Assembly (NCBI GenBank): GCA_030637655.1 | Contig: DAOWGI010000096.1 | Coordinates: 1-13,008 of the forward strand | Reading direction: 5' to 3' | Source of the DNA: a candidate division FCPU426 bacterium | GTDB lineage: Bacteria > Oederibacteriota > JAAXVQ01 > JAUVAV01 | DNA length: 13,008 nt | Shown: positions 1-13,008 of the stretch, in pieces | Numbering within the stretch: position 1 is the stretch's first letter | How the letters are laid out: each line of letters opens with the position of its first letter | Position numbers and translations under genes: made by a program | Notes under the pieces: generated by a model | Databases searched by the model: none | Told to the model about the DNA's origin: nothing | The model's input: the letters and a program-made list of their open reading frames with translations, nothing else

Positions 1-152
1 CAAGGTTCGCCCCTACAGATTCATTTTTATCTTACCAGGCGGACACAGGGGTCCGCCCCTACGGATTCATTTTTATCTTACGGGCGAACACAAGGTTCGC
101 CCCTACAGATTCATTTTTATCTTACCAGGCGGACACAGGGGTCCGCCCCTAC
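1..152. repeat. Tandem array of GTAG-family REP hairpins (BIME-like); two alternating variants with a 90-bp period; truncated at window start
   Basis: 1-62 is identical to 91-152. Variant A: GGGCGAAC-acaag-GTTCGCCC-CTAC (82-106; partial at 1-16). Variant B: GGCGGAC-acaggg-GTCCGCC-CCTAC (38-62, 128-152). Near-identical linker (a/g)gattcatttttatcttac at 17-35, 63-81 and 107-125. CTAC reads GTAG on the minus strand. Confidence 0.9.
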
Positions 153-170
153 ATTTATAACCATTTTCTT

Positions 171-3021: not shown

Positions 3022-4041
3022 TTATTTATAGGTGTATTGGCGGCATATTTTCAAAATAGTCATTTCTAAAAACATTTCCCAATGCGTTTTTCCAGTCTTC
3101 AAATGTACATCCAATTTGAGTAATTCCTGAAATATCTTTGCAAAAGCCTGTTTTGAATAGGTAGTAGCCTGTAATTGCATTTCACGGCGTGCCTGGGGAT
3201 TCCGAATGTTACCAACGATCTTATCCAGGTCCTCGCCACCATCCAAGCGTTTCCGAATACTATGTAGATTCCGAAAGTGCCAGGCTATCGCCCCCAGCAT
3301 CTGAATCGGACGAATTCCTTCATCTAAAACATGTTTCACCAAACGTACGGCCGCGCTGCCATCTGCCCGGCCCAAGGCCAGATTCAATTCATGCATAGTA
3401 TTTTGCCGGATGTGTCCGGCCGCAGCCCTGATATCCGCTGCCTCTATCATGGGCTTTTGACCGATATAATTTACAAGTTTATTGATCTCATTATCAATAT
3501 CCGCCAGAGTCTGACCAACGCGTTCAATTAGCAATTGCACTGCCTCGCGGGCAATACGCTTGCCATGTTCACCCACCCGGCGTTCCACCCAAGCCGGCAC
3601 TTGATTATCAAACAAAGGATAGCATTCCACATGATACGTGAGATTGGCAAAATTTTTCCAATTGGTCTGTTTTAGACGTTCTTCCTGAGAAGATATAATC
3701 AATACAGTAGTGGGCGCAGGATCTTTAAGATAAGTATCCAAGACATTCAAATCTCCGGCACGCCACTTCTCCGCTTGTCGAACCAGTATCACGCGGCGTT
3801 TTGCTATAAACGGCAGGGTCATGGCTCGTTCTTTTACCTCTTGCCCGGAGACATCCGTTCCTGCATACAAACTTTCAAAATTCATACTTCGTTCAGCCGG
3901 GGGAAGTACTTTATCAATAATGGTTTGTATTCCCTCTTCTTTAAGAAACGTTTCCGCTCCAGTAAAAAAGTAGACCGGTTTTACACTCCCGGAATCCAGG
4001 CTCCGTCTGAACTCTGTATAATATATTCTTTTTTTCGGCAC
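3022..4041 (-). CDS. holA: DNA polymerase III delta subunit
   Basis: KPVYFFTGAE.FL, TLPFIAKRRVILV, LIERVG..L..I.NEINKL and LL.LD..LKTG motifs. The GTG start directly abuts the lptE TAG. Canonical leuS-lptE-holA synteny. Confidence 0.93.
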   Translation of the reverse strand: MPKKRIYYTEFRRSLDSGSVKPVYFFTGAETFLKEEGIQTIIDKVLPPAERSMNFESLYAGTDVSGQEVKERAMTLPFIAKRRVILVRQAEKWRAGDLNVLDTYLKDPAPTTVLIISSQEERLKQTNWKNFANLTYHVECYPLFDNQVPAWVERRVGEHGKRIAREAVQLLIERVGQTLADIDNEINKLVNYIGQKPMIEAADIRAAAGHIRQNTMHELNLALGRADGSAAVRLVKHVLDEGIRPIQMLGAIAWHFRNLHSIRKRLDGGEDLDKIVGNIRNPQARREMQLQATTYSKQAFAKIFQELLKLDVHLKTGKTHWEMFLEMTILKICRQYTYK

Positions 4042-4569
4042 CTAGAACCCCTCTATGACTTTGGAAATAATACGTTGTGAAAGTTGTTTGACCAGGCGTC
4101 TCCTGGCAGTCGGTTCATCTTCCGGAGTAATCCCCAGATTGTTGGCCACATAGTAAGTAGTACTCTCTTCAAAGGCATCCTCTGTCCAGAGACTCCGGCC
4201 GGCTTTGGTGTCCTTTAATGAGAGCCGCAAAATCAGCCGCATTTTATACTGTTGGGGTGTATTGTGCACATCCAACAAGAGTGGCTCGAGCAAATATTGG
4301 ACTATGATTCCTTCCAGAATGGCATTGGCTTTATCAGTATCCGTCAGTTCCATACGGCCATCCACCAGAAAATCCTGATTGACTTGTTGGGTCAATTCGT
4401 TCTCGATCTCAGGTTGGGCCGTGCGATTTTGAAAGACAGGTACGGATAACTTACTCATATAATCCGGTAATCCCGGCCGCACAGCCACATCCGAGCATCC
4501 TGTTAAAAAATAACCGACTGCCATCATGCTTGCCAGCATTACTATTCCTATTCTTTTCTTTACCGCCAT
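4042..4569 (-). CDS. lptE: LptE-family LPS-assembly lipoprotein
   Basis: Signal peptide MAVKKR plus hydrophobic stretch plus lipobox LTG-C; VPVFQNRT..P.IE..LT and A.AILEG.I motifs; lies between leuS and holA. ATG 4569 (SD GGGGTG) preferred over 4596. Confidence 0.85.
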   Translation of the reverse strand: MAVKKRIGIVMLASMMAVGYFLTGCSDVAVRPGLPDYMSKLSVPVFQNRTAQPEIENELTQQVNQDFLVDGRMELTDTDKANAILEGIIVQYLLEPLLLDVHNTPQQYKMRLILRLSLKDTKAGRSLWTEDAFEESTTYYVANNLGITPEDEPTARRRLVKQLSQRIISKVIEGF

Positions 4570-4601
4570 AATCAACACCCCCGTTTTTTTATTCATGTCA
4601 C

Positions 4602-4646
4602 GTAGAGACGCGATTAATCGCGTCTCTACAATTGCGCGTCTCTACA
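4602..4646. repeat. 28-bp perfect GTAG REP (4602-4629) followed by an extra half-REP
   Basis: GTAGAGACGCGATT|AATCGCGTCTCTAC. CGCGTCTCTACA occurs at 4619-4630 and again at 4635-4646. Confidence 0.9.
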
Positions 4647-4653
4647 GCCTGCA

Positions 4654-7137
4654 TTAAAACACAATATTCACTAATTTATTCGGTATCACAATTACTTTTT
4701 TTGGTTTTCGACCTTCTGCCAAATTCCGCACCCTGTCATCGGCCAAGGCTTTCGCCTCAACTTTTTGTTTATCCATATCCGGAGTGGTCTCCAACCGGCT
4801 CCGTACTTTCCCATTCACTTGAATCACAATGGTTACTTTTTCTTCTGCTGCGCCGGCAGCATCACATTTCGGCCATCCGGCTGCAAAGATGGTTCCAGTA
4901 TGACCCATTTGTTGCCACAATTCTTCAGCCAAATGCGGAAAAAACGGAGCACACAATTTGGCAAAGTTCAGACAGACTTCTTTCATCACAGACATTCGTC
5001 CGGCAGCCTCCTCGGGCGAGGGTTCTTTCACGGTGTTGAGGTCATTCATCAATTCCATCATCGCGGCAATGGCAGTATTGAATTTAAAATCATTTTCCAG
5101 ATCAACAGTAATCCGTTGGATGGTCTGATGCAGTTTGCGCCGAATCTCACGGTCTTTTTCAGGCAAGCCGTCCGGTATCTTATTTGGAGTATTTGTCAAG
5201 AGTGGAATCCAGCGTTCGTAGAGGAGCCAAACCCGGCGCAAGAAACGGAAGATTCCTTCCACCCCCTGATCGCTCCACTCAAGTTCGCGTTCCGGCGGCG
5301 CGGCAAATAAAATAAAACCCCGGGTAGTATCAATGCCATAATTTTCTACCATATAATCAGCAGATACTGTATTGCCCTTGGATTTGGACATGACCTGACC
5401 GTCTTTTAAGACCATGCCTTGGGTAAAGAGCGCTTTAAACGGTTCATCAAACTCAAGCAAACCTTGATCATGCAATACTTTGGTGAAAAAACGCGAATAC
5501 AACAGATGCAAAATAGCGTGTTCAATACCGCCAATGTACTGATCCACAGGCATCCAGTATTTAACGGCTTCCGGATTAAAGGCATGCTCTTGATCGCGAG
5601 GCGAAGCATAGCGGAGATAATACCAGGAAGAATCAATAAAGGTATCCATGGTATCCGTCTCGCGGCGAGCCTTTTTCCCGCACTTGGGGCAGGTGGTTTC
5701 CGCAAAATCCCGGGCTGATTCCAGCATACCGGAAGGCTGATACGGTATATCCAAAGGCAAGGTAACCGGCAGCTCCTTTTCCGGAACCGGGAGAATACCA
5801 CAGTCATCACAATATATCATTGGAATCGGGCAGCCCCAATACCGTTGCCGGGAAATCAACCAATCCCGCAAGCGATAATTGATCACCTTTTTACCAATCC
5901 CCTCTTGTTCCATCCAGGCGGCAATTTTTTGCATGGCCTCGCGGTTTTTCATACCATCAAACTGACCGCTGTTCACCTGCACCCCATCTTCCACATAGGC
6001 TTCAGTCATCCGGTTGGCAGCCAGGATTTGTCCTTCGGGTTGAATAACCACTTTGATGGGCAAATTGTGATTCTTGGCAAATTCAAAATCCCGCTGGTCA
6101 TGCGCCGGCACAGCCATGATAGCTCCGGTCCCGTATTCCATCAGAACATAATCCGCCGCATACAACGGCACCTTTTCACCATTGACCGGATTAACCAGAC
6201 GCAGTCCGGTATCAATACCCTCTTTAGGTTTTTCCGTGGAAGCGCGCTCAATCTCGGACAACATTTTCACTTTTTCAGCAAAAGCTTTCACTTTAGCTGC
6301 TTCCGGTTTACCGGCCAACAATTCCTTAAGCAAAGGGTGCTCAGGCGCAATGGACATATATGTAATACCGAAAACCGTATCAATACGCGTGGTAAAGACT
6401 GAAAGTTCTTGGTCTGTGTTGTCAATTTTCAGTTTAAACTCAATACCTTCCGAGCGTCCGATCCAATTTGCTTGCATAGTTTTCACGCGTTCGGGCCATT
6501 GTTTGAGTTTGTCCAAATCCTGCAACAAACGTTCCGCATAATCCGTGATTTTTAAATACCATTGGTCCAATTCTTTTTTAACTACCAATTCTTTGCAGCG
6601 CCAGCAAGCACCCTCAATTACCTGTTCATTGGCCAGCACAGTATGACAGGTTTCGCACCAATTCACCGGATGCTTTTTTTTATACGCCAGACCGCGTTCG
6701 TAAAATTTCAGAAAAATCCACTGAGTCCAGCGATAATATTCCTCATCACAGGTAGCCAGTTCACGATTCCAATCATAAAGAATATCCAAAGCCAGGAGTT
6801 GTTTGGTCATCACACCTATGTTAGTACGGGTATATTCATTAGGATGAATGTTGTTTTTAATCGCCGCGTTTTCCGCCGGCAAGCCAAAGGCATCCCAGCC
6901 CATGGGACTTAACACATTGAATCCCTGCATCTTTTTGTAGCGTACGATTACATCACCAATAGTATAGTTCCGCACATGTCCCATGTGCAGATTCGATCCG
7001 GATGGGTACGGAAACATGACCAGGCAATAATATTTAGGTTTGTCGGAATCCTCTGTCACACGAGCCGGCTTTTTCTGCTGCCAAATGGCATGCCATTTTT
7101 CCTCAATGGATTGAAAGGGATATTGTTGTTCTTCCAC
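4654..7137 (-). CDS. leuS: Leucine--tRNA ligase (827 aa from GTG 7137)
   Basis: MFPYPSG, HMGH (HIGH), [34 protein letters not shown] editing domain, [11 protein letters not shown] and MSKSKGN. The true start is likely GTG at 7137 with GGAGG at 7148-7144. The ORF-track ATG at 7203 lies inside a REP. Confidence 0.98.
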
Positions 7138-7182
7138 TAATTGCCTCCAAAAACAGCATATATTCCTGCATGATTTCAACCT

Positions 7183-7210
7183 GTAGGGAATGGTCGCGAC
7201 CATCCCCTAC
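7183..7210. repeat. 28-bp GTAG REP in the leuS 5' leader
   Basis: GTAGGGAATGGTCG|CGACCATCCCCTAC (one mismatch). The stem extends to 7179-7214 (ACCT...AGGT). Confidence 0.9.
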
Positions 7211-7262
7211 AGGTATTATGTCCATTATGCAATATCTGCATTTTTCCATATAAATTGGGTGG

Positions 7263-7292
7263 ATTATAGCACAGGCAAAAAGAAAGGGTCAA
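7263..7292 (-). promoter_or_regulatory. sigma70 promoter of leuS-lptE-holA
   Basis: Minus strand TTGACC (7292-7287), 18 bp, TATAAT (7268-7263) with extended -10 TGc. Confidence 0.8.
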
Positions 7293-7327
7293 ATGTATTT
7301 ACCGGTTGATTGTAACAGGGGCAGATT

Positions 7328-7503
7328 GTAACAGGTCAGTGAACTGCGGTTAAACAAAGGTTGTCATTCCCGAGGGTTTAATCGGCCCCGACCGGTAAAG
7401 ATATATAGGGACGCCTTCGGCAGGAATCTGGTTTTTTAAACCATATCCCCGATACAAGCATTCGGGGATGACAAACAAAAAAAACGCATGACTGACCTGT
7501 TAC
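7328..7503. mobile_element. Non-autonomous MITE with IS66-like ends (176 bp)
   Basis: Perfect 13-bp TIRs GTAACAGGTCAGT (7328-7340) and ACTGACCTGTTAC (7491-7503). The 8-bp right flank GGTTGATT (7504-7511) matches 7304-7311 exactly and 7320-7327 (GGCAGATT) at 6/8. No coding capacity. Confidence 0.7.
7361..7474. repeat. GTCATTCCCG...CGGGGATGAC inverted hairpin doublet (REPIN-like) inside the MITE
   Basis: TTGTCATTCCCGA (7361-7373) and TCGGGGATGACAA (7462-7474) are inverted with one mismatch. The right hairpin ATCCCCGA-9nt-TCGGGGAT (7445-7469) is intact. The left hairpin is split by a 38-nt insert (7386-7423). Confidence 0.75.
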
Positions 7504-7553
7504 GGTTGATTGTAGCCTGAATATCATTCCCAGATTATCGTGCTAGGATCGAT

Positions 7554-10500
7554 CTACACCGCTCGCTCTGGAATACGATTTATCAGACGAGGCCGGTCAA
7601 ATAAATCTTTTTTATTTTTAATAAATCTTATACCTGGAATTTTCCACAAAATATCAATAATCGCTCCCAATTCCCCGGGAAATTCTCGCAAACTTAGAGG
7701 CGCAAATATATCTTTATCATTCAATTCTCCTACTTTAGCTACATCGAACACGGCTATTTTACTTAAAATATCCAGGAACGCTATCACAAATTTATTTTGT
7801 TCTACCTGTAATACCCGCGCTTTTTCCAAGTCCCCTGTTTTTTTCAGCCTCTCTATCTCACGGCTTTGTGCTTTCAGCCTGGCTGTCATCTTCCGTATAA
7901 GTAATTCATTCATTTTGTCCGGCTCTTTCGCGTATTTCAGATAGTCCTTACCCCTGGATATATTTTCGAGCAATGCTTTTAAACGTGGTTCAATTACGCC
8001 GTCAAGTACAACCTTGATATACATTTCCGGATTTATACTCTGACACAGCTTATATAGCACGTTTTTTATGCCTCTGGGCAAGGTCTCATTGGCATCCAAT
8101 AGGCGTTTTATTGCTGTCTCAACCAGGACCTCTGCACGAATATGGTGGTAATGAACATTACTCTGAAGTTCAAGTATTTGTCCTAACCGCTCGGTAGCCA
8201 AACTCACAACCACACGTTTCCAAGCTGTATCAGCTTGTGCTCGTGGTTTTTTACCGGTTAATTGCACTAGTATAGTCAGGATGGATCGAGACACATAGAC
8301 AACCGGCCTGCTTATTCCGGCTGCATCCTGCACATCTTTATAATAATGTCCAAACAGCAGCCCTTTTAAATAATTCCAAGTACCCACTCCCCTGTTCAAC
8401 ACCCGGATCTCCACCTGATCCGGCGCAAAACGAATTACCGTCGCATCGGTTTCCGGGAAATGTGCCAACTTGAGGGCCCTGATCAAAGGATGGCGGTTTA
8501 TGGTTTCAGTACTTAGATCCACGTGCTCATTGCTTCGATCCACAGCCATACCCAGCGACCAGGATGCAGCGCCCAGCATCAGCAGCCATCCGTAGCGCAA
8601 CAACGGCCAGCGGTCGAGCCAATTATGCCGTTGCAGAATGTGGGCGTTAGGTGCGTGCTTCATCCTTCGTGTTAACCTACCGGATTCTCTGTTATCCAAA
8701 GTTTCCATTTTTTCATCCTTGCCTACCGGCCCGGACTGATAACCGGAGACTTTACCAGCCCGAACAACAAACGGCCAATTGTGATAGTCTTTCAGCTCCA
8801 ATTGTACTGGTCCTTGTTCAGATTCCAGCCCAACATGGTTGAGGAGGTCAACAATATCTTTTCTGGAAAAAAGCCGGATATTTTCCCTGTTCAAAGCTGA
8901 CCGATCATAGAAATGTCGTCCAATGTCTTCCTCGAGATTAATCCACTGTGACATATCATTGGTTTCATGGGTGGAAAAAACTTTAAAAACTAATTGCCCG
9001 CCTGGGTTTAAACGTTTTGTAAACAGTTCGAACAATCTCAGAATTTCTTCCCAAGAAAAATATTGCAGCGACAGATGGGCATGGATAATGTCAAAGGAAT
9101 GAGGAGTATTTTCAAGGTAGGATAGAAACTCCCCTGCTTGGCCGTCTTTTAATTCCACATTATCTAATCCCAAACTGCTGATACGGGTTCGAAAGGCCGC
9201 AACTGCATTTTCGGAAAAATCCAATCCCACATACTGTTTGAAACCCCTGGTTGCCAATTCATATGACCCGCCATAGCCGTCTGCGCATCCCATATCCAAC
9301 ATAGTCATTGTGCCGGGATCGCGGGTGCCAATAATCTTTTCAACTTCATTCAACATGGTTATCTGAGGTCTATACCAGTTGACCTTGCCGGTTTTAGAGT
9401 AACTCCTCTCAAAAAAAGCATGAGTATTATTTTTGCTTGTGAGTTCTGAATCCCGTGCATTGGTTTCATCTAAATGAGTTTGATTAAGTATTCCCGTGGC
9501 CACCGCTTCCTTGATGGAATACTGGTTATCCAAAAATTTTAATTCCATATAGGTCTGCCCGGCCTCAACCGCATCAAGGAAATGTTCCAATGCCTGCCCA
9601 AAACCTTGATATCCCACATTGTCTTTACCCTTTTCATCGCGCGCCGTAATCACTTGAGCGTGGCCGGCCATGGTGCCGGCTGTACTCAAAGAGATCGGAA
9701 AATAAGGATCTGTTTGAACATCTTTATATAAAAATTTATCTAAAGAGCTATCACCCAGCGCAAGCGTCGCGCCCTCTGTTTCAATAGCAGCGAGGTAGTC
9801 TTGCACTTCTTGAGCTTTGCATAATTTAGTAAAGAGCATGAATTCATCCCCGGAGGTTGCCTGGATTCCCCGGTCTGCTAAGGAAAATCTACGTGCTTCA
9901 AGAATTTTTAATGCCCGCTGGAGAGCCTTATTGCCATTAACCAAACCACCGGGTTCGACCAAATCCAGAATTGCATTCATCCGCCAAAAACCGGCGGGGG
10001 TGTGATCTTTTACAGTTGCATTAAAGATATCAATTATTTCAACTGTGTTGTTTGTCCGACTGATGGCTGCCAGCGCTTCTGAAAAATCCAATTGCTTGAT
10101 CTCCGCTAATTCCTGCAAATAACCCATTGCTGCGGCACGGGACAATTCTATTTGGCTTACAGGATCCAAAGCCTTGCTTTGGTCTTGGTCAGCCTCAACC
10201 AAATAATTGCCTTTTTTGTCAAATACCAATCGCTCACCACCTAGGCTGCCTTTAATCGTCAATTTCTGTAAATACGATTCATCACCTGTCCGGCGGAAAT
10301 CATCACGGATGGCTTTAACCACATGGTCTTCAAGTGCAGCGAATGAAGAATCCCGTTTACGCACCACAAAATCATCAGGATCTTCAGATTGGTATAGAAG
10401 TATCTTGCCTTTTTTTAACACGGGACTGCCGCTAATTAACAAAACCGGGATTCCCATTCGCAAAGCCTGTTTGATTTGCGCCAAATTCACACCGTCAGGT

Positions 10501-13007
10501 TTGCTAGTTGAATTCATAGTAAACGTTGAATAAATATCTGCCACGATCGCTTTGATTTTAACTTTGTCGTTTAATGGCAATTTCCGAGGTATTTGACGGG
10601 CACAACGCAGCGTAGCCTGTTTTGTAGCAAGGGATGAATGGATTATACGTTTAAAATCCAATGTTGGAATATGTGGCGGTAATTCATCAACCGGCGCAGG
10701 CGTATCTTTTGCATTTTTTTTATTCTTTGAAAGAACATCGTCTTTGTTTGCATTCAGATTCAATTGCGCTTTGTCAGCCGGTATCAATCCAGTCGAATCG
10801 CTTGCTTTGACCTGCATGTGATACATAACGTGTTCCCCAGGAGCATCAGTCAATTTAATGTTAAACAAGTTATCCACCATCACATCAATCCAGGTTTCAG
10901 GATCAGCAATATGCAATGTACCGAATACAAAGTAATTATTAGAATTATTGCGGATCTGTTCTTTCAATTGCGCTTTATCAATCCAATGACGACCTTCCAG
11001 CGCTTGTACGTTTTGATTTAAAAGATCAGCTAATGCTTGCCAAAACACACGCTGAATAATTTTCCGTTTTTTCGTCTCACTCTCGGTTCCTTTAATCACA
11101 AACCTTTGAGCATAACTTTCCGGTATCTTGAGATTGGCCAATATCGCTTCACTCTTAAAATTAATGTAATTGTAAAAGTGTAGGCTGGATAATTTCTGTT
11201 CTCCGGTCCGGTCGGCAACATACTCATTTTCTTGTATAATTGCCGCCAATACTTTCTGGTTTTTTCTTAGCTGATGCAGTAAAAAAGCAAAATTGACCTG
11301 ACTGGTTGGTTGGCCGCCTCTGGTTCGGACCATAAACCGGCCGTTTAATTCGTATGTTGTCGAATCAGCAAAAAGATCGCCGGTTAACAGCATGTTCATC
11401 AAAACAGCTGTTTCATCAGCCCCGGGTTTAAGGCTGTCCGCAGAAACAAAGCCATAATCGGATATATGAAGATAACCACCTCTATCCAAATCCAGCATCT
11501 CAATAGCATGCTCTAAATTCTTGACAGCATTAATATTCAATGGAAATTTACATCGCTCAATGCCTTCGGTCCAAAACATTAAAAAATCAGCATAGGGATA
11601 TTCTGCCAGATTAATCGGCTTTTCCGCGCGTTTTTCTTCAATATTAAATTCCTTCAAAAAGCCGGGTTTTAATTCTTGTAGCACAACTGAACCGCGCAAC
11701 TTATACTCCAAAGCCAGTTCCTCAGCGCTGATAAAGCTGCCATCTTGTTTTTCAAATTGAGCTGTTCGCGGCCAGCGTATTCTGGCTTGAGTAGTATAAA
11801 ATTCATTCCCTTGCTTTTGTATCTGCTCTACCCCGCCCAGATCATCATAGAGTTCATTGAAGCGAATAAGCATGGCACTCCGGTCCGACCAAGGCAAGGA
11901 TTCATTGGCATCAAAGCGGGTATAAGCAAGAACGGGTTGATGGCTGGACAGGCAAGAATTATTCCGGACCAAATCCAGCATTTCCTGTGAATAATCACTA
12001 ATCACGCATTGCAAACGTGAATAATAAATATTTTCATTGTCCAGTCTCTTAAACGTATCCAAAAAATCAGCCACATATCTGCCGTCCCCTGCACCCCAAT
12101 GATGAATAGTAATTATTGAGGGTGTGTGTTTAGCCGGATCAGTATTGCCATCCATGGTTTTAAGTCGCTGATAAAACTCCTGGGCATCAATTTTCGCTAC
12201 CAAAGGATCTCGAGAAACCGAGGTCGCAAAATGTTGGTGAATATCCTGAGTACTGGTTTGATAATAAATTTTGTTCAGCTTGCGGTAAATATCACCTAAA
12301 GCCTGAAATTCAATGCCTTCCGGATAAATCCATTGCTCATCCATGTTTTCTGTCAACTGCGCCCAGGGGACAAGCATATTATAAACACCATGCATGCCCA
12401 GGAAGCTCAGCACCGTAGAAGTTATTGGTACCAAAACCGCAGCCGGTCCCATAGCTCCCAGGGCCGCGCCCAGGCCTGGGATGGCATAGACTGCCAGCAT
12501 TGGTACAGTAAATATGCTGGTGTACATATTGACAATGCCGATAAAGCGCGAAATCAGTTTAAAGTAATCTCTTGTTCCATCAGATTTTCTATTACCATGT
12601 TCGCGCAGCCATTTGATTGGAGCAAAAAAGTTTTCACTGCTGAACTCCTGCCAGGGACGCGCAAATACACCGCGCAAGTATTGTTTGAAGGATATTTTAG
12701 TACGGGATACAACCTGGTTCACATACCAATGAATAATGAGTGAAGCGGCAAATATCAGGGGCAGAGGTAAGGATGTAAATAACAACGCTGAATTGACAAC
12801 GGCAATAATAGCGGCCGGTATCCAGACGGCTTTCGGAGGCGCGCGGCCTCTAAAAAGCATTTGCGCAAAATGGAGCAAAAAGAAAATCGGCCAGGCAGCC
12901 AAATAACCTGCTTGCCAGAACAGCTCAGGACTTACCGCACCCACTGAGATTAAGGCCATAGACGCAATCGATCCTGCAAGCAGGGATATTCCATTTTCCG
13001 CCAGCCA
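7554..13007 (-). CDS. Giant multidomain membrane-associated protein, 5'-partial (at least 1817 aa): TM module, MidA/NDUFAF7-like MTase, Cof-type HAD-like domain, class I SAM MTase, unknown C-terminal region
   Basis: The frame is open from TAG at 7554 to the window edge (WLAENGISLLAGSIAS precedes Met 12959). Motifs: HWGAGDG, NELYDDL, GGYLHISDYG, TSQVNF; IKAIVADIYST, GIPVLLISG, CK, ALGDSSLD; LDMGCADG, GLDFSENAV, FDII, LNPGGQL. Confidence 0.9.
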   Translation of the reverse strand, partial: WLAENGISLLAGSIASMALISVGAVSPELFWQAGYLAAWPIFFLLHFAQMLFRGRAPPKAVWIPAAIIAVVNSALLFTSLPLPLIFAASLIIHWYVNQVVSRTKISFKQYLRGVFARPWQEFSSENFFAPIKWLREHGNRKSDGTRDYFKLISRFIGIVNMYTSIFTVPMLAVYAIPGLGAALGAMGPAAVLVPITSTVLSFLGMHGVYNMLVPWAQLTENMDEQWIYPEGIEFQALGDIYRKLNKIYYQTSTQDIHQHFATSVSRDPLVAKIDAQEFYQRLKTMDGNTDPAKHTPSIITIHHWGAGDGRYVADFLDTFKRLDNENIYYSRLQCVISDYSQEMLDLVRNNSCLSSHQPVLAYTRFDANESLPWSDRSAMLIRFNELYDDLGGVEQIQKQGNEFYTTQARIRWPRTAQFEKQDGSFISAEELALEYKLRGSVVLQELKPGFLKEFNIEEKRAEKPINLAEYPYADFLMFWTEGIERCKFPLNINAVKNLEHAIEMLDLDRGGYLHISDYGFVSADSLKPGADETAVLMNMLLTGDLFADSTTYELNGRFMVRTRGGQPTSQVNFAFLLHQLRKNQKVLAAIIQENEYVADRTGEQKLSSLHFYNYINFKSEAILANLKIPESYAQRFVIKGTESETKKRKIIQRVFWQALADLLNQNVQALEGRHWIDKAQLKEQIRNNSNNYFVFGTLHIADPETWIDVMVDNLFNIKLTDAPGEHVMYHMQVKASDSTGLIPADKAQLNLNANKDDVLSKNKKNAKDTPAPVDELPPHIPTLDFKRIIHSSLATKQATLRCARQIPRKLPLNDKVKIKAIVADIYSTFTMNSTSKPDGVNLAQIKQALRMGIPVLLISGSPVLKKGKILLYQSEDPDDFVVRKRDSSFAALEDHVVKAIRDDFRRTGDESYLQKLTIKGSLGGERLVFDKKGNYLVEADQDQSKALDPVSQIELSRAAAMGYLQELAEIKQLDFSEALAAISRTNNTVEIIDIFNATVKDHTPAGFWRMNAILDLVEPGGLVNGNKALQRALKILEARRFSLADRGIQATSGDEFMLFTKLCKAQEVQDYLAAIETEGATLALGDSSLDKFLYKDVQTDPYFPISLSTAGTMAGHAQVITARDEKGKDNVGYQGFGQALEHFLDAVEAGQTYMELKFLDNQYSIKEAVATGILNQTHLDETNARDSELTSKNNTHAFFERSYSKTGKVNWYRPQITMLNEVEKIIGTRDPGTMTMLDMGCADGYGGSYELATRGFKQYVGLDFSENAVAAFRTRISSLGLDNVELKDGQAGEFLSYLENTPHSFDIIHAHLSLQYFSWEEILRLFELFTKRLNPGGQLVFKVFSTHETNDMSQWINLEEDIGRHFYDRSALNRENIRLFSRKDIVDLLNHVGLESEQGPVQLELKDYHNWPFVVRAGKVSGYQSGPVGKDEKMETLDNRESGRLTRRMKHAPNAHILQRHNWLDRWPLLRYGWLLMLGAASWSLGMAVDRSNEHVDLSTETINRHPLIRALKLAHFPETDATVIRFAPDQVEIRVLNRGVGTWNYLKGLLFGHYYKDVQDAAGISRPVVYVSRSILTILVQLTGKKPRAQADTAWKRVVVSLATERLGQILELQSNVHYHHIRAEVLVETAIKRLLDANETLPRGIKNVLYKLCQSINPEMYIKVVLDGVIEPRLKALLENISRGKDYLKYAKEPDKMNELLIRKMTARLKAQSREIERLKKTGDLEKARVLQVEQNKFVIAFLDILSKIAVFDVAKVGELNDKDIFAPLSLREFPGELGAIIDILWKIPGIRFIKNKKDLFDRPRLINRIPERAV

Positions 13008-13008
13008 C

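What the first reader, a model, noticed from the sequence alone, without database searches (positions are those of the whole stretch)
7554..13007. Giant polyprotein-like ORF linking unrelated enzymes and membrane modules
Seen: a single open frame of at least 1817 codons running off the window. Numbering from Met 12959, it has hydrophobic helices (aa ~1-200), a methyltransferase (aa ~222-720), a low-complexity linker (aa ~720-765), a HAD-like domain (aa ~800-1130), a second methyltransferase (aa ~1178-1403) and an unknown region. Established: each of these families normally occurs as a stand-alone protein of a few hundred aa, and they share no pathway. Giant proteins mixing TM segments with diverse enzyme domains have been reported in candidate lineages with proposed predatory or host-associated lifestyles, such as Omnitrophota. 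Inference: this may be a delivered or processed multi-effector protein in a diderm, sitting next to core genes. It is the best candidate here for an undescribed system.
Basis: partly seen in the sequence, partly recalled or inferred. Interest (0 to 1): 0.82.

Follow-up and report, generated by a model that had tools for sequence, protein, structure and literature searches.

The report
Giant membrane-tethered multi-enzyme protein
The open frame is the real tail end of a roughly 4,600-residue membrane protein that strings unrelated enzymes between repeated membrane anchors, one of dozens of such giants in an uncultured cold-seep bacterium and of a kind already reported in the neighbouring phylum Omnitrophota.

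Summary
Window 7554-13007 (-) is one open frame of 1817 codons with no stop or indel in four metagenome runs. It is only the C-terminal 40% of the gene. The contig end overlaps another contig of the genome by exactly 127 nt in frame, which gives a gene of about 4,568 aa.

Anatomy of the whole protein, N to C:
- signal-anchor
- exported "head" of about 440 aa
- two unknown modules, one with an invariant HExxH...E motif
- 6-helix membrane module
- unknown region
- second copy of the membrane module (the window starts here)
- MidA/NDUFAF7-type methyltransferase
- linker
- Cof-type HAD domain, with its general-acid Asp replaced by Tyr
- class I methyltransferase
- two modules of unknown fold, the last always C-terminal

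The head occurs 28 times in this genome. It was found in 14 of 14 genomes of the same order and in 0 of 26 from the rest of the phylum. Distant copies sit in giants labelled Omnitrophota, Auribacterota and Elusimicrobia. A relative carries the same frame with other cassettes.

Best reading: an inner-membrane-tethered, cytoplasm-facing enzyme string. Delivery as an effector is not supported, and processing remains open. It is a new member of a known kind. This scan had already met the shared head on another piece of the same genome.

The parts
12363..13007 (-). Membrane module, copy 2 (aa 1-215 of the open frame). It forms six helices as three hairpins. Its first ~30 conserved residues lie on contig C57.
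   Evidence: It is 63% identical to copy 1 in the C57 part. The AlphaFold model of copy 1 has pLDDT 81 and shows 6 long helices. K/R residues sit only in alternate loops and in the flanks. E-N, FxxxH, RAPP and HxxxN are nearly invariant in 22 copies.
10803..12305 (-). MT1: MidA/NDUFAF7-type (PF02636) SAM methyltransferase domain with a C-terminal extension (aa ~235-735).
   Evidence: Pfam PF02636 gives E 0.004, below the cut-off. Of 8 stand-alone homologues scanned, 7 pass the cut-off. The GAGDG, NELYDDL, SDYGF and TSQVNF blocks align with them.
10626..10802 (-). Low-complexity linker rich in D, K, L, P, A and N (aa 736-794).
   Evidence: Sequence and composition. No homologue stretch covers it.
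9468..10625 (-). Cof-type (cap C2) HAD-superfamily domain (aa 795-1180). Motif I is DIYST at window 10524-10538.
   Evidence: Alignment A1 shows SGSP, an invariant Lys and GDSxxD. DxDxT is present in 8 of the 9 rows that cover motif I, and the window's row is the exception. The profile hits solved Cof-type HAD phosphatases: 1wr8 at E 2.4e-5, and 4qjb, 3niw and 3mpo at about 0.005.
8748..9452 (-). MT2: class I SAM-dependent methyltransferase (aa ~1186-1420).
   Evidence: Methyltransf_25, _12, _31, _11 and _23 all score above their cut-offs, with E from 2e-13 to 4e-9. Solved small-molecule and protein MTases match at E down to 7.8e-5. A giant of genome G003 holds a copy 70% identical.
8112..8735 (-). 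Module M5 (aa 1425-1632). It opens with a Trp-rich hydrophobic helix followed by a small alpha/beta unit. The fold is unknown.
   Evidence: Homologues at 25-45% identity occur inside giants of relatives, often straight after a membrane unit. The model has pLDDT 76. Foldseek gives no hit at E <= 0.001 and VIA gives no Z >= 8.
7557..8111 (-). Conserved C-terminal domain (aa 1633-1817). The stop codon is at 7554-7556.
   Evidence: It is 72% identical to the C-terminus of the C3 giant. All 10 copies fetched from own and related genomes end at a stop codon right after the domain, and most relatives end ...RRRxxFR[ST]xxQAA.
7204..7553 (.). Intergenic gap between the giant gene's stop and leuS. It holds a high-copy repeat element and is not part of the protein.
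   Evidence: Summed depth is 52-1521 there against 0-22 beside it in four runs, with many loose ends and joints. Inverted repeats are visible in the sequence.

Best explanation
The open frame is the C-terminal 1,817 residues of one gene of about 4,568 codons, split by the assembler across contigs C57 and C12. The product is an inner-membrane protein of a large paralogous family.

Family layout: an N-terminal signal-anchor, an exported head of about 440 aa, then a very long tail. In the tail, unrelated enzyme cassettes are strung between copies of a conserved hairpin membrane module, and the tail ends in a conserved C-terminal domain.

Inferred topology and function:
- Each membrane module crosses the membrane an even number of times, with only 3-5-residue turns outside. 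The cassettes on both sides therefore stay on the cytoplasmic face.
- In this protein the cassette in the window is a MidA/NDUFAF7-type methyltransferase, then a Cof-type HAD domain lacking its general-acid Asp, then a class I methyltransferase.
- It most likely works as a membrane-tethered string of cofactor-dependent enzymes acting on membrane-proximal substrates. The periplasmic head is the only large exposed part.

Shown: the frame, the join evidence, the domains, the paralogy, the module shuffling and the distribution. Inferred: the topology, cytoplasmic action, and that it acts uncleaved. Substrates are unknown.
For: Frame and join:
- The frame is open and free of indels in four runs.
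- The end overlap is exactly 127 nt and in frame. The terminal 60-mer occurs only in C12 and C57 among 120 contigs.
- The join completes the conserved start of the membrane unit, GGIxPWLKA...YDRWVAW.
- A contig of run X3 runs 1,131 nt past the window end.
- A relative's single-contig 3,500-aa frame (G002:C32) carries the same order. Head, modules A and B, and membrane unit 1 are 43% identical over 1,832 aa. A second membrane unit follows, then M5 at 45% identity, with different cassettes in between.

Family:
- The head was found in 29 frames of this genome and gave 28 matches there.
- It was found in 10 of 10 genomes of the same family and 4 of 4 of the sister family, with 6-43 matches each, and in 0 of 26 other genomes of the phylum.
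- 137 longer-range head homologues carry tails with kinases, methyltransferases, glycolytic enzymes, SecA-like domains and more.
- Seven of 13 paralogues scanned carry assorted enzyme domains.

Topology:
- The model shows six helices in three hairpins.
- K+R counts are 3, 2, 9 and 4 in the N flank, loop 2-3, loop 4-5 and the C flank. They are 0 in the three hairpin turns.
- Most paralogues have a strong hydrophobic segment right after the head.

Domains.

Context: no secretion genes lie beside the gene.
Against: - The join is not seen in any single assembled protein. No protein of 3,181-5,000 aa matching the query was found (weak evidence). The last ~500 nt of the window are fragmented into short unitigs with a variant.
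- In this protein the segment after the head that should bring the chain back into the cytoplasm is weakly hydrophobic and holds a Lys and an Arg. If it does not span the membrane, the whole tail would be periplasmic.
- The topology rests on a hydropathy scale, a predicted model and the positive-inside rule. No dedicated topology predictor was run.
- The nearly invariant polar residues inside the membrane unit (E-N, H, H...N) suggest it does more than anchor.
- Nielsen & Lui read SP+TM giants of Omnitrophota as exported and anchored on the outer face (section 9 read). That is the opposite of my topology.
- The HAD motif I lacks Asp+2, so one 'enzyme' may be inactive.
Confidence: 0.55

Rival explanations
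1. Self-processing membrane polyprotein. The giant precursor is cut at or near the membrane modules into separate membrane-anchored enzymes. The cutting agent would be the embedded HExxH...E module, the membrane unit itself, or a host protease.
For: - An HExxH motif followed 22 residues later by E..AD is invariant in 5 of 5 homologues at 21-36% identity. It lies ~200 aa upstream of membrane module 1.
- The membrane unit carries nearly invariant E-N, FxxxH and HxxxN. Their order and spacing recall (from memory) the CPBP/Rce1 intramembrane proteases.
- A GG pair precedes about half of the membrane units.
- West-Roberts et al. raise cleavage of Omnitrophota giants as an open question (passages).
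Against: - The HExxH module has no Pfam hit (0 of 5 members) and no solved-structure sequence hit better than E 1.1.
- PF02517 (Rce1-like) does not hit the membrane unit.
- No C39 peptidase was found in the genome, which is 91.6% complete.
- No conserved leader-like sequence precedes the GG pairs.
Confidence: 0.2
2. Delivered multi-effector. The protein or its pieces are exported and act inside a host or prey cell, where SAM and phosphorylated substrates are available.
For: - Head homologues occur in phyla with proposed predatory or episymbiotic members (for the literature).
- The N-terminus looks like a signal peptide or signal anchor.
- The hydrophobic segment after the head is weak in this protein. 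A fully exported tail is therefore not excluded.
- MidA/NDUFAF7-type enzymes methylate a protein arginine in mitochondria (recalled), an activity known among effectors in general.
Against: - Twelve or more hydrophobic helices in two hairpin modules would hold the chain in the producer's membrane.
- No VipB, VirB4 or FHIPEP marker was found. Only two secretins were found.
- The neighbours are housekeeping or signalling genes.
- Family members carry glycolytic and sugar-metabolism enzymes rather than toxin domains.
Confidence: 0.07
3. Assembly or bin artefact, or a decaying pseudogene. On this reading the fusion of domains is not a real single gene.
For: The gene is split over two contigs, and the window's last ~500 nt are fragmented in the assembly graphs. 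One paralogue (C103) has an in-frame TAG.
Against: - A 5,068-nt unitig spans every domain junction from MT1 to the stop with 0 differences, and two other samples agree.
- There are 1,817 + 2,793 codons without a stop.
- All modules have conserved homologues.
- The same order lies on one contig in a relative.
Confidence: 0.03

Closest known systems
Multi-enzyme, transmembrane-punctuated giant proteins of Omnitrophota (West-Roberts et al. 2023, bioRxiv 10.1101/2023.11.21.568195; Nielsen & Lui 2026, bioRxiv 10.64898/2026.06.07.730766)
   Same: - Very long single frames in small genomes, with many transmembrane helices spaced between unrelated enzyme domains.
- Methyltransferase (PF08241) and HAD (PF13419) domains are among the commonest there (section 8 read).
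[quoted passage not shown]
- N-terminal regions are without identifiable domains, and whether the proteins are cleaved is an open question (passages).
- The head of this protein has homologues in proteins labelled Omnitrophota/Omnitrophica.
   Different: - Size: about 4.6 kAA here, against the >= 10 kAA catalogued there.
- Lineage: relatives are labelled Firestonebacteria or FCPU426.
- No SecA-like or C39 domain is present in this protein.
- The shared head, the conserved hairpin membrane unit, M5 and the C-terminal domain are not mentioned in the passages and sections I read. I did not read either preprint whole, and their supplements were not seen.
MidA / NDUFAF7 family (Pfam PF02636, Methyltransf_28)
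   Same: MT1 aligns with stand-alone 347-461-aa homologues that pass the family cut-off. It keeps the GxGxG, NELxDDL, DYG and TxxVNF blocks.
   Different: It is embedded in a giant membrane protein and has a ~100-aa C-terminal extension. Its direct Pfam score is below the cut-off. The substrate is unknown.
Cof-type (subclass IIB) HAD phosphatases, e.g. solved chains 1wr8, 3niw, 3mpo, 4qjb
   Same: The nucleophile Asp, the motif II Ser, the motif III Lys and the motif IV GDxxxD are present, with a large cap between motifs II and III. The profile hits these chains.
   Different: Motif I is DIYST, so the Asp+2 general acid/base is Tyr. Eight related copies keep DxDxT. The cap is ~200 aa long and has no detectable relatives.
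MARTX-type modular toxins (recalled, not tested by sequence)
   Same: Conserved terminal regions frame a variable set of enzyme cassettes that differ between relatives.
   Different: No RTX repeats or cysteine protease domain were detected by Pfam. The hairpin transmembrane modules and the housekeeping-type cassettes also set it apart. No type I secretion genes lie beside the gene.

Membership tests
Class I SAM-dependent methyltransferases (MT2) | Profile match above the curated cut-off | tested here: met
   Scores against cut-offs: PF13649 51.3/27, PF08242 50.9/30, PF13847 47/27, PF08241 40.6/21.2, PF13489 36.9/27 bits.
Class I SAM-dependent methyltransferases (MT2) | Glycine-rich SAM loop and an acidic residue at the end of strand 2 (motif names recalled) | tested here: met
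   LDMGCADG at aa 1237-1244 and VGLDFS at about aa 1260-1265. The loop has Ala in place of the middle Gly.
MidA/NDUFAF7, PF02636 (MT1) | Profile match above the curated cut-off | tested here: not met
   17.1 bits against a cut-off of 23.3, E 0.004, covering aa 296-411 only.
MidA/NDUFAF7, PF02636 (MT1) | Homology to proteins that pass the cut-off, with the conserved blocks retained | tested here: met
   Seven of 8 stand-alone homologues scanned pass (31-55 bits). They match MT1 at E from 2e-29 to 4e-12. The blocks align.
HAD superfamily, Cof-type | Motif I nucleophile Asp, motif II Ser/Thr, motif III Lys, motif IV acidic pair | tested here: met
   D824, S859-G-S-P, an invariant Lys (K270 of A1) and G1085-D-S-S-L-D. 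The profile hits solved Cof-type HADs at E 2.4e-5.
HAD superfamily, Cof-type | Asp at nucleophile+2 (the general acid/base of phosphatases) | tested here: not met
   The window has Tyr (DIYST). Eight of the 9 rows that cover the motif have Asp.
Omnitrophota-type multi-enzyme giant membrane proteins | Several unrelated enzyme domains in one frame, separated by transmembrane helices | tested here: met
Omnitrophota-type multi-enzyme giant membrane proteins | Length >= 10,000 aa (catalogue threshold) and phylum Omnitrophota | tested here: not met
   About 4,568 aa. Relatives are labelled Firestonebacteria or FCPU426.
Head-bearing giant family (earlier finding e1-4545756) | N-terminal hydrophobic segment followed by the conserved head of ~440 aa | tested here: met
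   P0002 aa 41-484 is 29-54% identical to 20 paralogues, with 37 invariant columns.
TIKI/TraB/ChaN/erythromycin-esterase superfamily (proposed for the head by the earlier finding) | Fold or profile similarity | tested here: inconclusive
   One of 21 heads hits PF04187 at E 0.06. The head profile finds no solved chain at E <= 10. No structure was predicted here.
CPBP/Rce1 intramembrane proteases (considered for the membrane unit) | Profile or fold similarity | tested here: inconclusive
   PF02517 does not hit the unit. Fold searches with the model gave nothing clear.
Zincin metallopeptidases (considered for module B on contig C57) | HExxH plus a downstream third ligand; profile or fold similarity | tested here: inconclusive
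   The motif is invariant in 5 of 5 homologues. There are no Pfam or solved-structure matches, and the fold was not predicted.

The most novel reading that the evidence does not exclude
The repeated hairpin membrane unit is not a passive anchor. It would be a new intramembrane catalytic or gating module, with buried and nearly invariant E-N, FxxxH and HxxxN residues. Together with the invariant HExxH...E module, it would cut or thread the giant chain. On this reading the head-bearing giants of this order, and their relatives in Omnitrophota, Auribacterota and Elusimicrobiota, are bacterial membrane polyproteins built on a common frame of head, membrane units, M5 and C-terminal domain. Enzyme cassettes would be swapped into that frame.
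Probability: 0.1. Interest if true: 0.85.

Novelty: new member of a known kind. Interest (0 to 1): 0.55.

Why it matters
Giant genes take up 16% of this 3.3-Mb genome: 63 frames of 1,200 aa or more. What they do is an open question for Omnitrophota and its neighbours.

This case adds three usable handles:
- A conserved frame (head, hairpin membrane unit, M5, C-terminal domain). It lets family members be recognised and aligned even though their tails are unrelated.
- A relative with the same frame but other cassettes. This shows cassette exchange inside one gene.
- A protein of about 4.6 kAA. It is small enough to express in parts for topology mapping and for cleavage and enzyme assays, which the 10-150 kAA Omnitrophota proteins are not.

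It also extends the phenomenon to a lineage for which my four literature searches listed no report of giant genes.

Tried and rejected
- CPBP/Rce1 idea for the membrane unit. PF02517 finds only two ordinary genes in the genome. Foldseek against the PDB gave no hit at E <= 0.001, best 0.6. VIA-align over 48,161 chains gave a best Z of 5.7 on generic helical hairpins. Not supported, not excluded.
- Fold of M5 plus the C-terminal domain. Foldseek best E was 0.4. The VIA best Z was 7.1 on three-helix bundles. The protein atlas gave one hit at 0.77, below the usable range.
- Atlas search on C57 aa 1950-2750 gave no usable hit. An NTase-like GGS...DFD motif seen by eye there has no Pfam support.
- Head fold. 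The profile found nothing among solved chains. PF04187 found nothing in 31 genomes, but it also rang in none of the controls, so that search is uninformative.
- Looking for a full-length copy in other assemblies. No protein of 3,181-5,000 aa matched. In the 999-3,180 aa range only 4 partial relatives appeared.
- The search for related loci with the whole protein found nothing. With the HAD alignment it gave 4 loci, which supplied organism labels.
- Expression: no RNA holder was listed among 7 runs.
- Run X4 leaves parts of the frame without cover.
- C39 peptidase as a processing enzyme: not found in the genome.
- The joined 4,568-aa sequence was never sent to a tool. The two parts were analysed separately.
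Full report
**1. The observation**

The window is a whole contig, C12 of a 3.28-Mb, 120-contig genome that is 91.6% complete. On the minus strand, 7554-13007 is open for 1,817 codons and runs off the contig end.

Contigs from four metagenome runs of one cold-seep study were laid on 7000-13008.
- One 5,068-nt unitig of run X1, which may be the source of this DNA, covers 7467-12534 with no difference.
- Pieces from two other samples (X2, X3) also show no difference there.
- The only indels listed lie at 7352 and 7477, outside the frame.

The frame is therefore not a run of missed stops.

**2. The gene is longer than the window**

The 3' end of contig C57 and the reverse complement of the C12 end overlap by exactly 127 nt. 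The terminal 60-mer occurs in no other of the 120 contigs. The overlap is in frame with a 2,793-codon frame on C57 that starts at an ATG. Joined, the gene has 2,793 + 1,817 - 42 = 4,568 codons.

Three further observations support the join.
- It completes a conserved module. Its first ~30 residues (GGIxPWLKA...YDRWVAW, conserved in relatives) lie on C57 and the rest on C12.
- A contig of run X3 continues 1,131 nt beyond the window end.
- In genome G002, of the same family, one 3,500-aa frame on one contig has the same order of parts.

Against the join: no single assembled protein spans it (weak evidence). The last ~500 nt of the window are broken into short unitigs with a variant.

**3. Anatomy**

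On C57 (P0002):
- aa 1-41: basic N-terminus and a hydrophobic segment.
- aa 41-484: the 'head'.
- aa ~655-675: a weakly hydrophobic segment, at the place where most paralogues have a strong one.
- aa ~700-1710: two unknown modules. The second has HELGH followed 22 residues later by QEHFAD. These residues are invariant in 5 of 5 homologues at 21-36% identity, but the module has no Pfam or solved-structure match.
- aa 1712-1949: membrane module, copy 1.
- aa 1950-2750: unknown.

On the window (P0001):
- aa 1-215: membrane module, copy 2, 63% identical to copy 1.
- aa ~235-735: MT1.
- aa 736-794: linker.
- aa 795-1180: HAD domain.
- aa ~1186-1420: MT2.
- aa 1425-1632: module M5.
- aa 1633-1817: C-terminal domain.

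**4. The domains in the window**

MT2 is a plain class I methyltransferase, with five Pfam families above their cut-offs.

MT1 scores below the cut-off for PF02636. A search of 1.84 billion representative proteins with aa 230-1180 found 118 relatives at E <= 0.001. I scanned 16 of them. Seven of the 8 stand-alone MT1-type proteins (347-461 aa) pass the PF02636 cut-off. MT1 keeps their GxGxG, NELxDDL, DYG and TxxVNF blocks.

The third domain has no Pfam hit, but it shows the four HAD motifs when aligned with nine relatives. Its profile hits solved Cof-type HAD phosphatases, with 1wr8 at E 2.4e-5. Motif I is DIYST here, whereas the 8 other rows that cover it have DxDxT. The general acid/base of phosphatases is therefore missing. 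From memory, DxYxT is the motif of 2-haloacid dehalogenases, so the domain may be inactive or may perform other chemistry.

**5. The membrane module**

Twenty copies were fetched from giants of nine related genomes and aligned with the two own copies.
- A core of ~130 aa recurs many times per protein in relatives.
- Nearly invariant residues are Y-D, E-N, W..F...H, R-A(PP), N and H...N.
- The model (pLDDT 81) shows six long helices in three hairpins, with amphipathic helices between hairpins 2 and 3.
- Lys+Arg counts are 3, 2, 9 and 4 in the N flank, loop 2-3, loop 4-5 and the C flank. They are 0 in the three hairpin turns, which are 3-5 residues long.

By the positive-inside rule both flanks are cytoplasmic. 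That fits enzymes needing SAM and phosphorylated substrates.

The polar motifs recalled CPBP/Rce1 proteases to me. Neither the Pfam profile nor two fold searches support that, so the fold is unassigned.

**6. The C-terminal modules**

M5 and the C-terminal domain have homologues only inside giants of relatives.

All 10 C-terminal-domain copies fetched end at a stop codon directly after the domain. Most relatives end ...RRRxxFR[ST]xxQAA, while this protein ends ...DRPRLINRIPERAV.

The model (pLDDT 76) has no significant fold match.

**7. The family**

- The head occurs in 29 frames of this genome, always at the N-terminus where the frame is complete. It gave 28 matches there.
- Twenty paralogous heads are 29-54% identical to this one, with 37 invariant columns that include D..H-C, E-G and G-G.H.
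- The tails are almost all unique within the genome.
- Seven of 13 paralogues scanned carry one or two enzyme-type Pfam domains: AAA_5, LRR, GH99, PMI, metallophosphatase, protein kinase, aldose epimerase, HATPase_c and GT1. Six carry none.
- Frames of 1,200 aa or more number 63 and take up 15.9% of the genome.
- The head is found in 10 of 10 genomes of the same family and 4 of 4 of the sister family, with 6-43 matches each. It is found in 0 of 26 genomes from twelve other families of the phylum at E <= 1e-10.
- In the 5.8-billion-protein collection, 137 proteins of 1,536-4,888 aa match the head at E <= 1e-5. Source labels where given are Firestonebacteria, Omnitrophica/Omnitrophota, Auribacterota, Elusimicrobia/Endomicrobia, one Desulfobulbaceae partial and 'bacterium'. 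Their tails include SecA-like, kinase, radical-SAM, glycolytic, PGM, ROK and sigma-factor domains.

On the lineage: relatives in the same GTDB order carry conflicting NCBI labels, Candidatus Firestonebacteria and candidate division FCPU426. I therefore name the lineage only as one of these candidate phyla.

**8. Cassette exchange**

The G002 frame is 43% identical to this protein over head, both unknown modules and membrane module 1 (1,832 aligned residues). It then has a second membrane unit, M5 at 45% identity and, by eye, the C-terminal tail. It lacks MT1, the HAD domain and MT2, and it has no Pfam domain at all.

Where the window's cassettes do recur:
- MT2 is 70% identical to a copy inside a 6,246-aa frame of G003.
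- The HAD module is 34-39% identical to copies inside frames of up to 12,659 aa in seven relatives.
- MT1 was not found in any of the 41 genomes searched. It does occur inside other giants in the representative library.

The frame is thus conserved and the enzyme cassettes are exchanged.

**9. How it most likely works**

I commit to a membrane-tethered, cytoplasm-facing enzyme string (confidence 0.55). The signal-anchor and the post-head segment would expose the head to the periplasm. Everything after is held at the inner face of the membrane by hairpin modules.

This agrees with the even helix count, the charge distribution, the cofactor needs and the housekeeping character of cassettes across the family.

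It is weakened by three points.
- The post-head segment is feeble in this protein.
- No dedicated topology predictor was run.
- The preprint authors read signal-peptide giants as lying on the outer face.

Rivals:
- Self-processing polyprotein, 0.2. For it: HExxH...E and the polar membrane-unit residues. Against it: no family or fold support and no C39 peptidase.
- Delivered effector, 0.07. No VipB, VirB4 or FHIPEP was found, only two secretins. The neighbours are patatin, GGDEF, a hybrid kinase and a small HAD upstream, and leuS-lptE-holA downstream.
- Artefact, 0.03.

**10. Comparison with what is known**

Two preprints describe the kind.
- West-Roberts et al. 2023 (passages seen). All full-length giants of Omnitrophota have many transmembrane regions, their N-terminal regions lack identifiable domains, HAD_2 and SAM-methyltransferase-like domains occur, and cleavage is an open question.
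- Nielsen & Lui 2026 (abstract, outline and sections 8 and 9 read). [quoted passage not shown]

This protein fits that kind and shares its head with proteins labelled Omnitrophota, so I file it as a new member.

Term searches in both texts for N-terminal, C-terminal, TraB, erythromycin and polyprotein did not turn up the head, the membrane unit, M5 or the C-terminal domain.

None of the 19 papers that mention Firestonebacteria and none of the 7 that mention both FCPU426 and 'giant' concerns giant genes in these lineages, judged from titles, abstract starts and one set of passages.

**11. Earlier work of this scan**

Finding e1-4545756, on another piece of this genome, reported the shared exported head and proposed a TIKI/TraB/ChaN-type hydrolase fold. 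I confirmed that the head is shared and N-terminal. I could not confirm the fold: 1 of 21 heads hits PF04187 at E 0.06, and the head profile finds no solved chain.

**Verdict**

The open frame is real and well observed, and its domains were correctly called. It belongs to a described kind of giant membrane protein, not to an undescribed system. Its interest is moderate. It lies in the recognisable frame, the cassette exchange, and a size that makes topology and cleavage experimentally testable.

Noticed in passing
window 4-153, and the end of contig C63: A 46-nt unit is repeated 3.3 times at the start of the contig (85% matches). The first 60 nt of the window recur at window position 91 and at the last ~90 nt of contig C63. 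This contig end therefore also sits in a repeat that broke the assembly.
   Followed up: partly
window 7204-7553: The gap between leuS and the giant gene holds an element with inverted repeats (TGTCATTCCCGA ... TCGGGGATGACA). Its summed contig depth is 52-1521 against 0-22 beside it in four metagenome runs, with many joints and loose ends. It may be one of the small mobile hairpin elements noted earlier in this genome.
   Followed up: partly
L006:9535-10896 (contig C57, aa 1187-1640 of the same protein): HExxH followed 22 residues later by E..AD is invariant in 5 of 5 homologues at 21-36% identity. This is a zincin-like signature without any Pfam or solved-structure match.
   Followed up: partly
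L006, about aa 2550-2575 of the C57 part: By eye, a GGS...DFD motif resembles the nucleotidyltransferase-fold signature. No Pfam family supports it, and no relative among those searched shares this stretch.
   Followed up: partly
G000:C103:1-1203 onwards: One head-bearing paralogue (3,286-aa reading) is interrupted by a single in-frame TAG inside the head. It could be a pseudogene, a sequencing error or read-through.
   Followed up: no
proteins P0156, P0123, P0172, P0205: Head-bearing giants elsewhere carry enolase, triose-phosphate isomerase and phosphoglycerate kinase in one chain (P0156). Others carry SecA-like domains (P0123, P0172) or a sigma-70 factor (P0205).
   Followed up: no
window 3022-7203 and 7554-13007: The giant gene lies directly upstream of leuS-lptE-holA on the same strand. 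Whether they are co-transcribed is unknown.
   Followed up: no
L019 and P0240/P0241: Genomes that the search tool places in one order with the window's genome carry two different phylum labels in their public records: Candidatus Firestonebacteria and candidate division FCPU426.
   Followed up: partly
L017 and L018: Copies of the HAD-type module (32-36% identity) lie on contigs labelled Deltaproteobacteria and Methanosarcinales in metagenome bins. This may reflect mis-binning or transfer.
   Followed up: no
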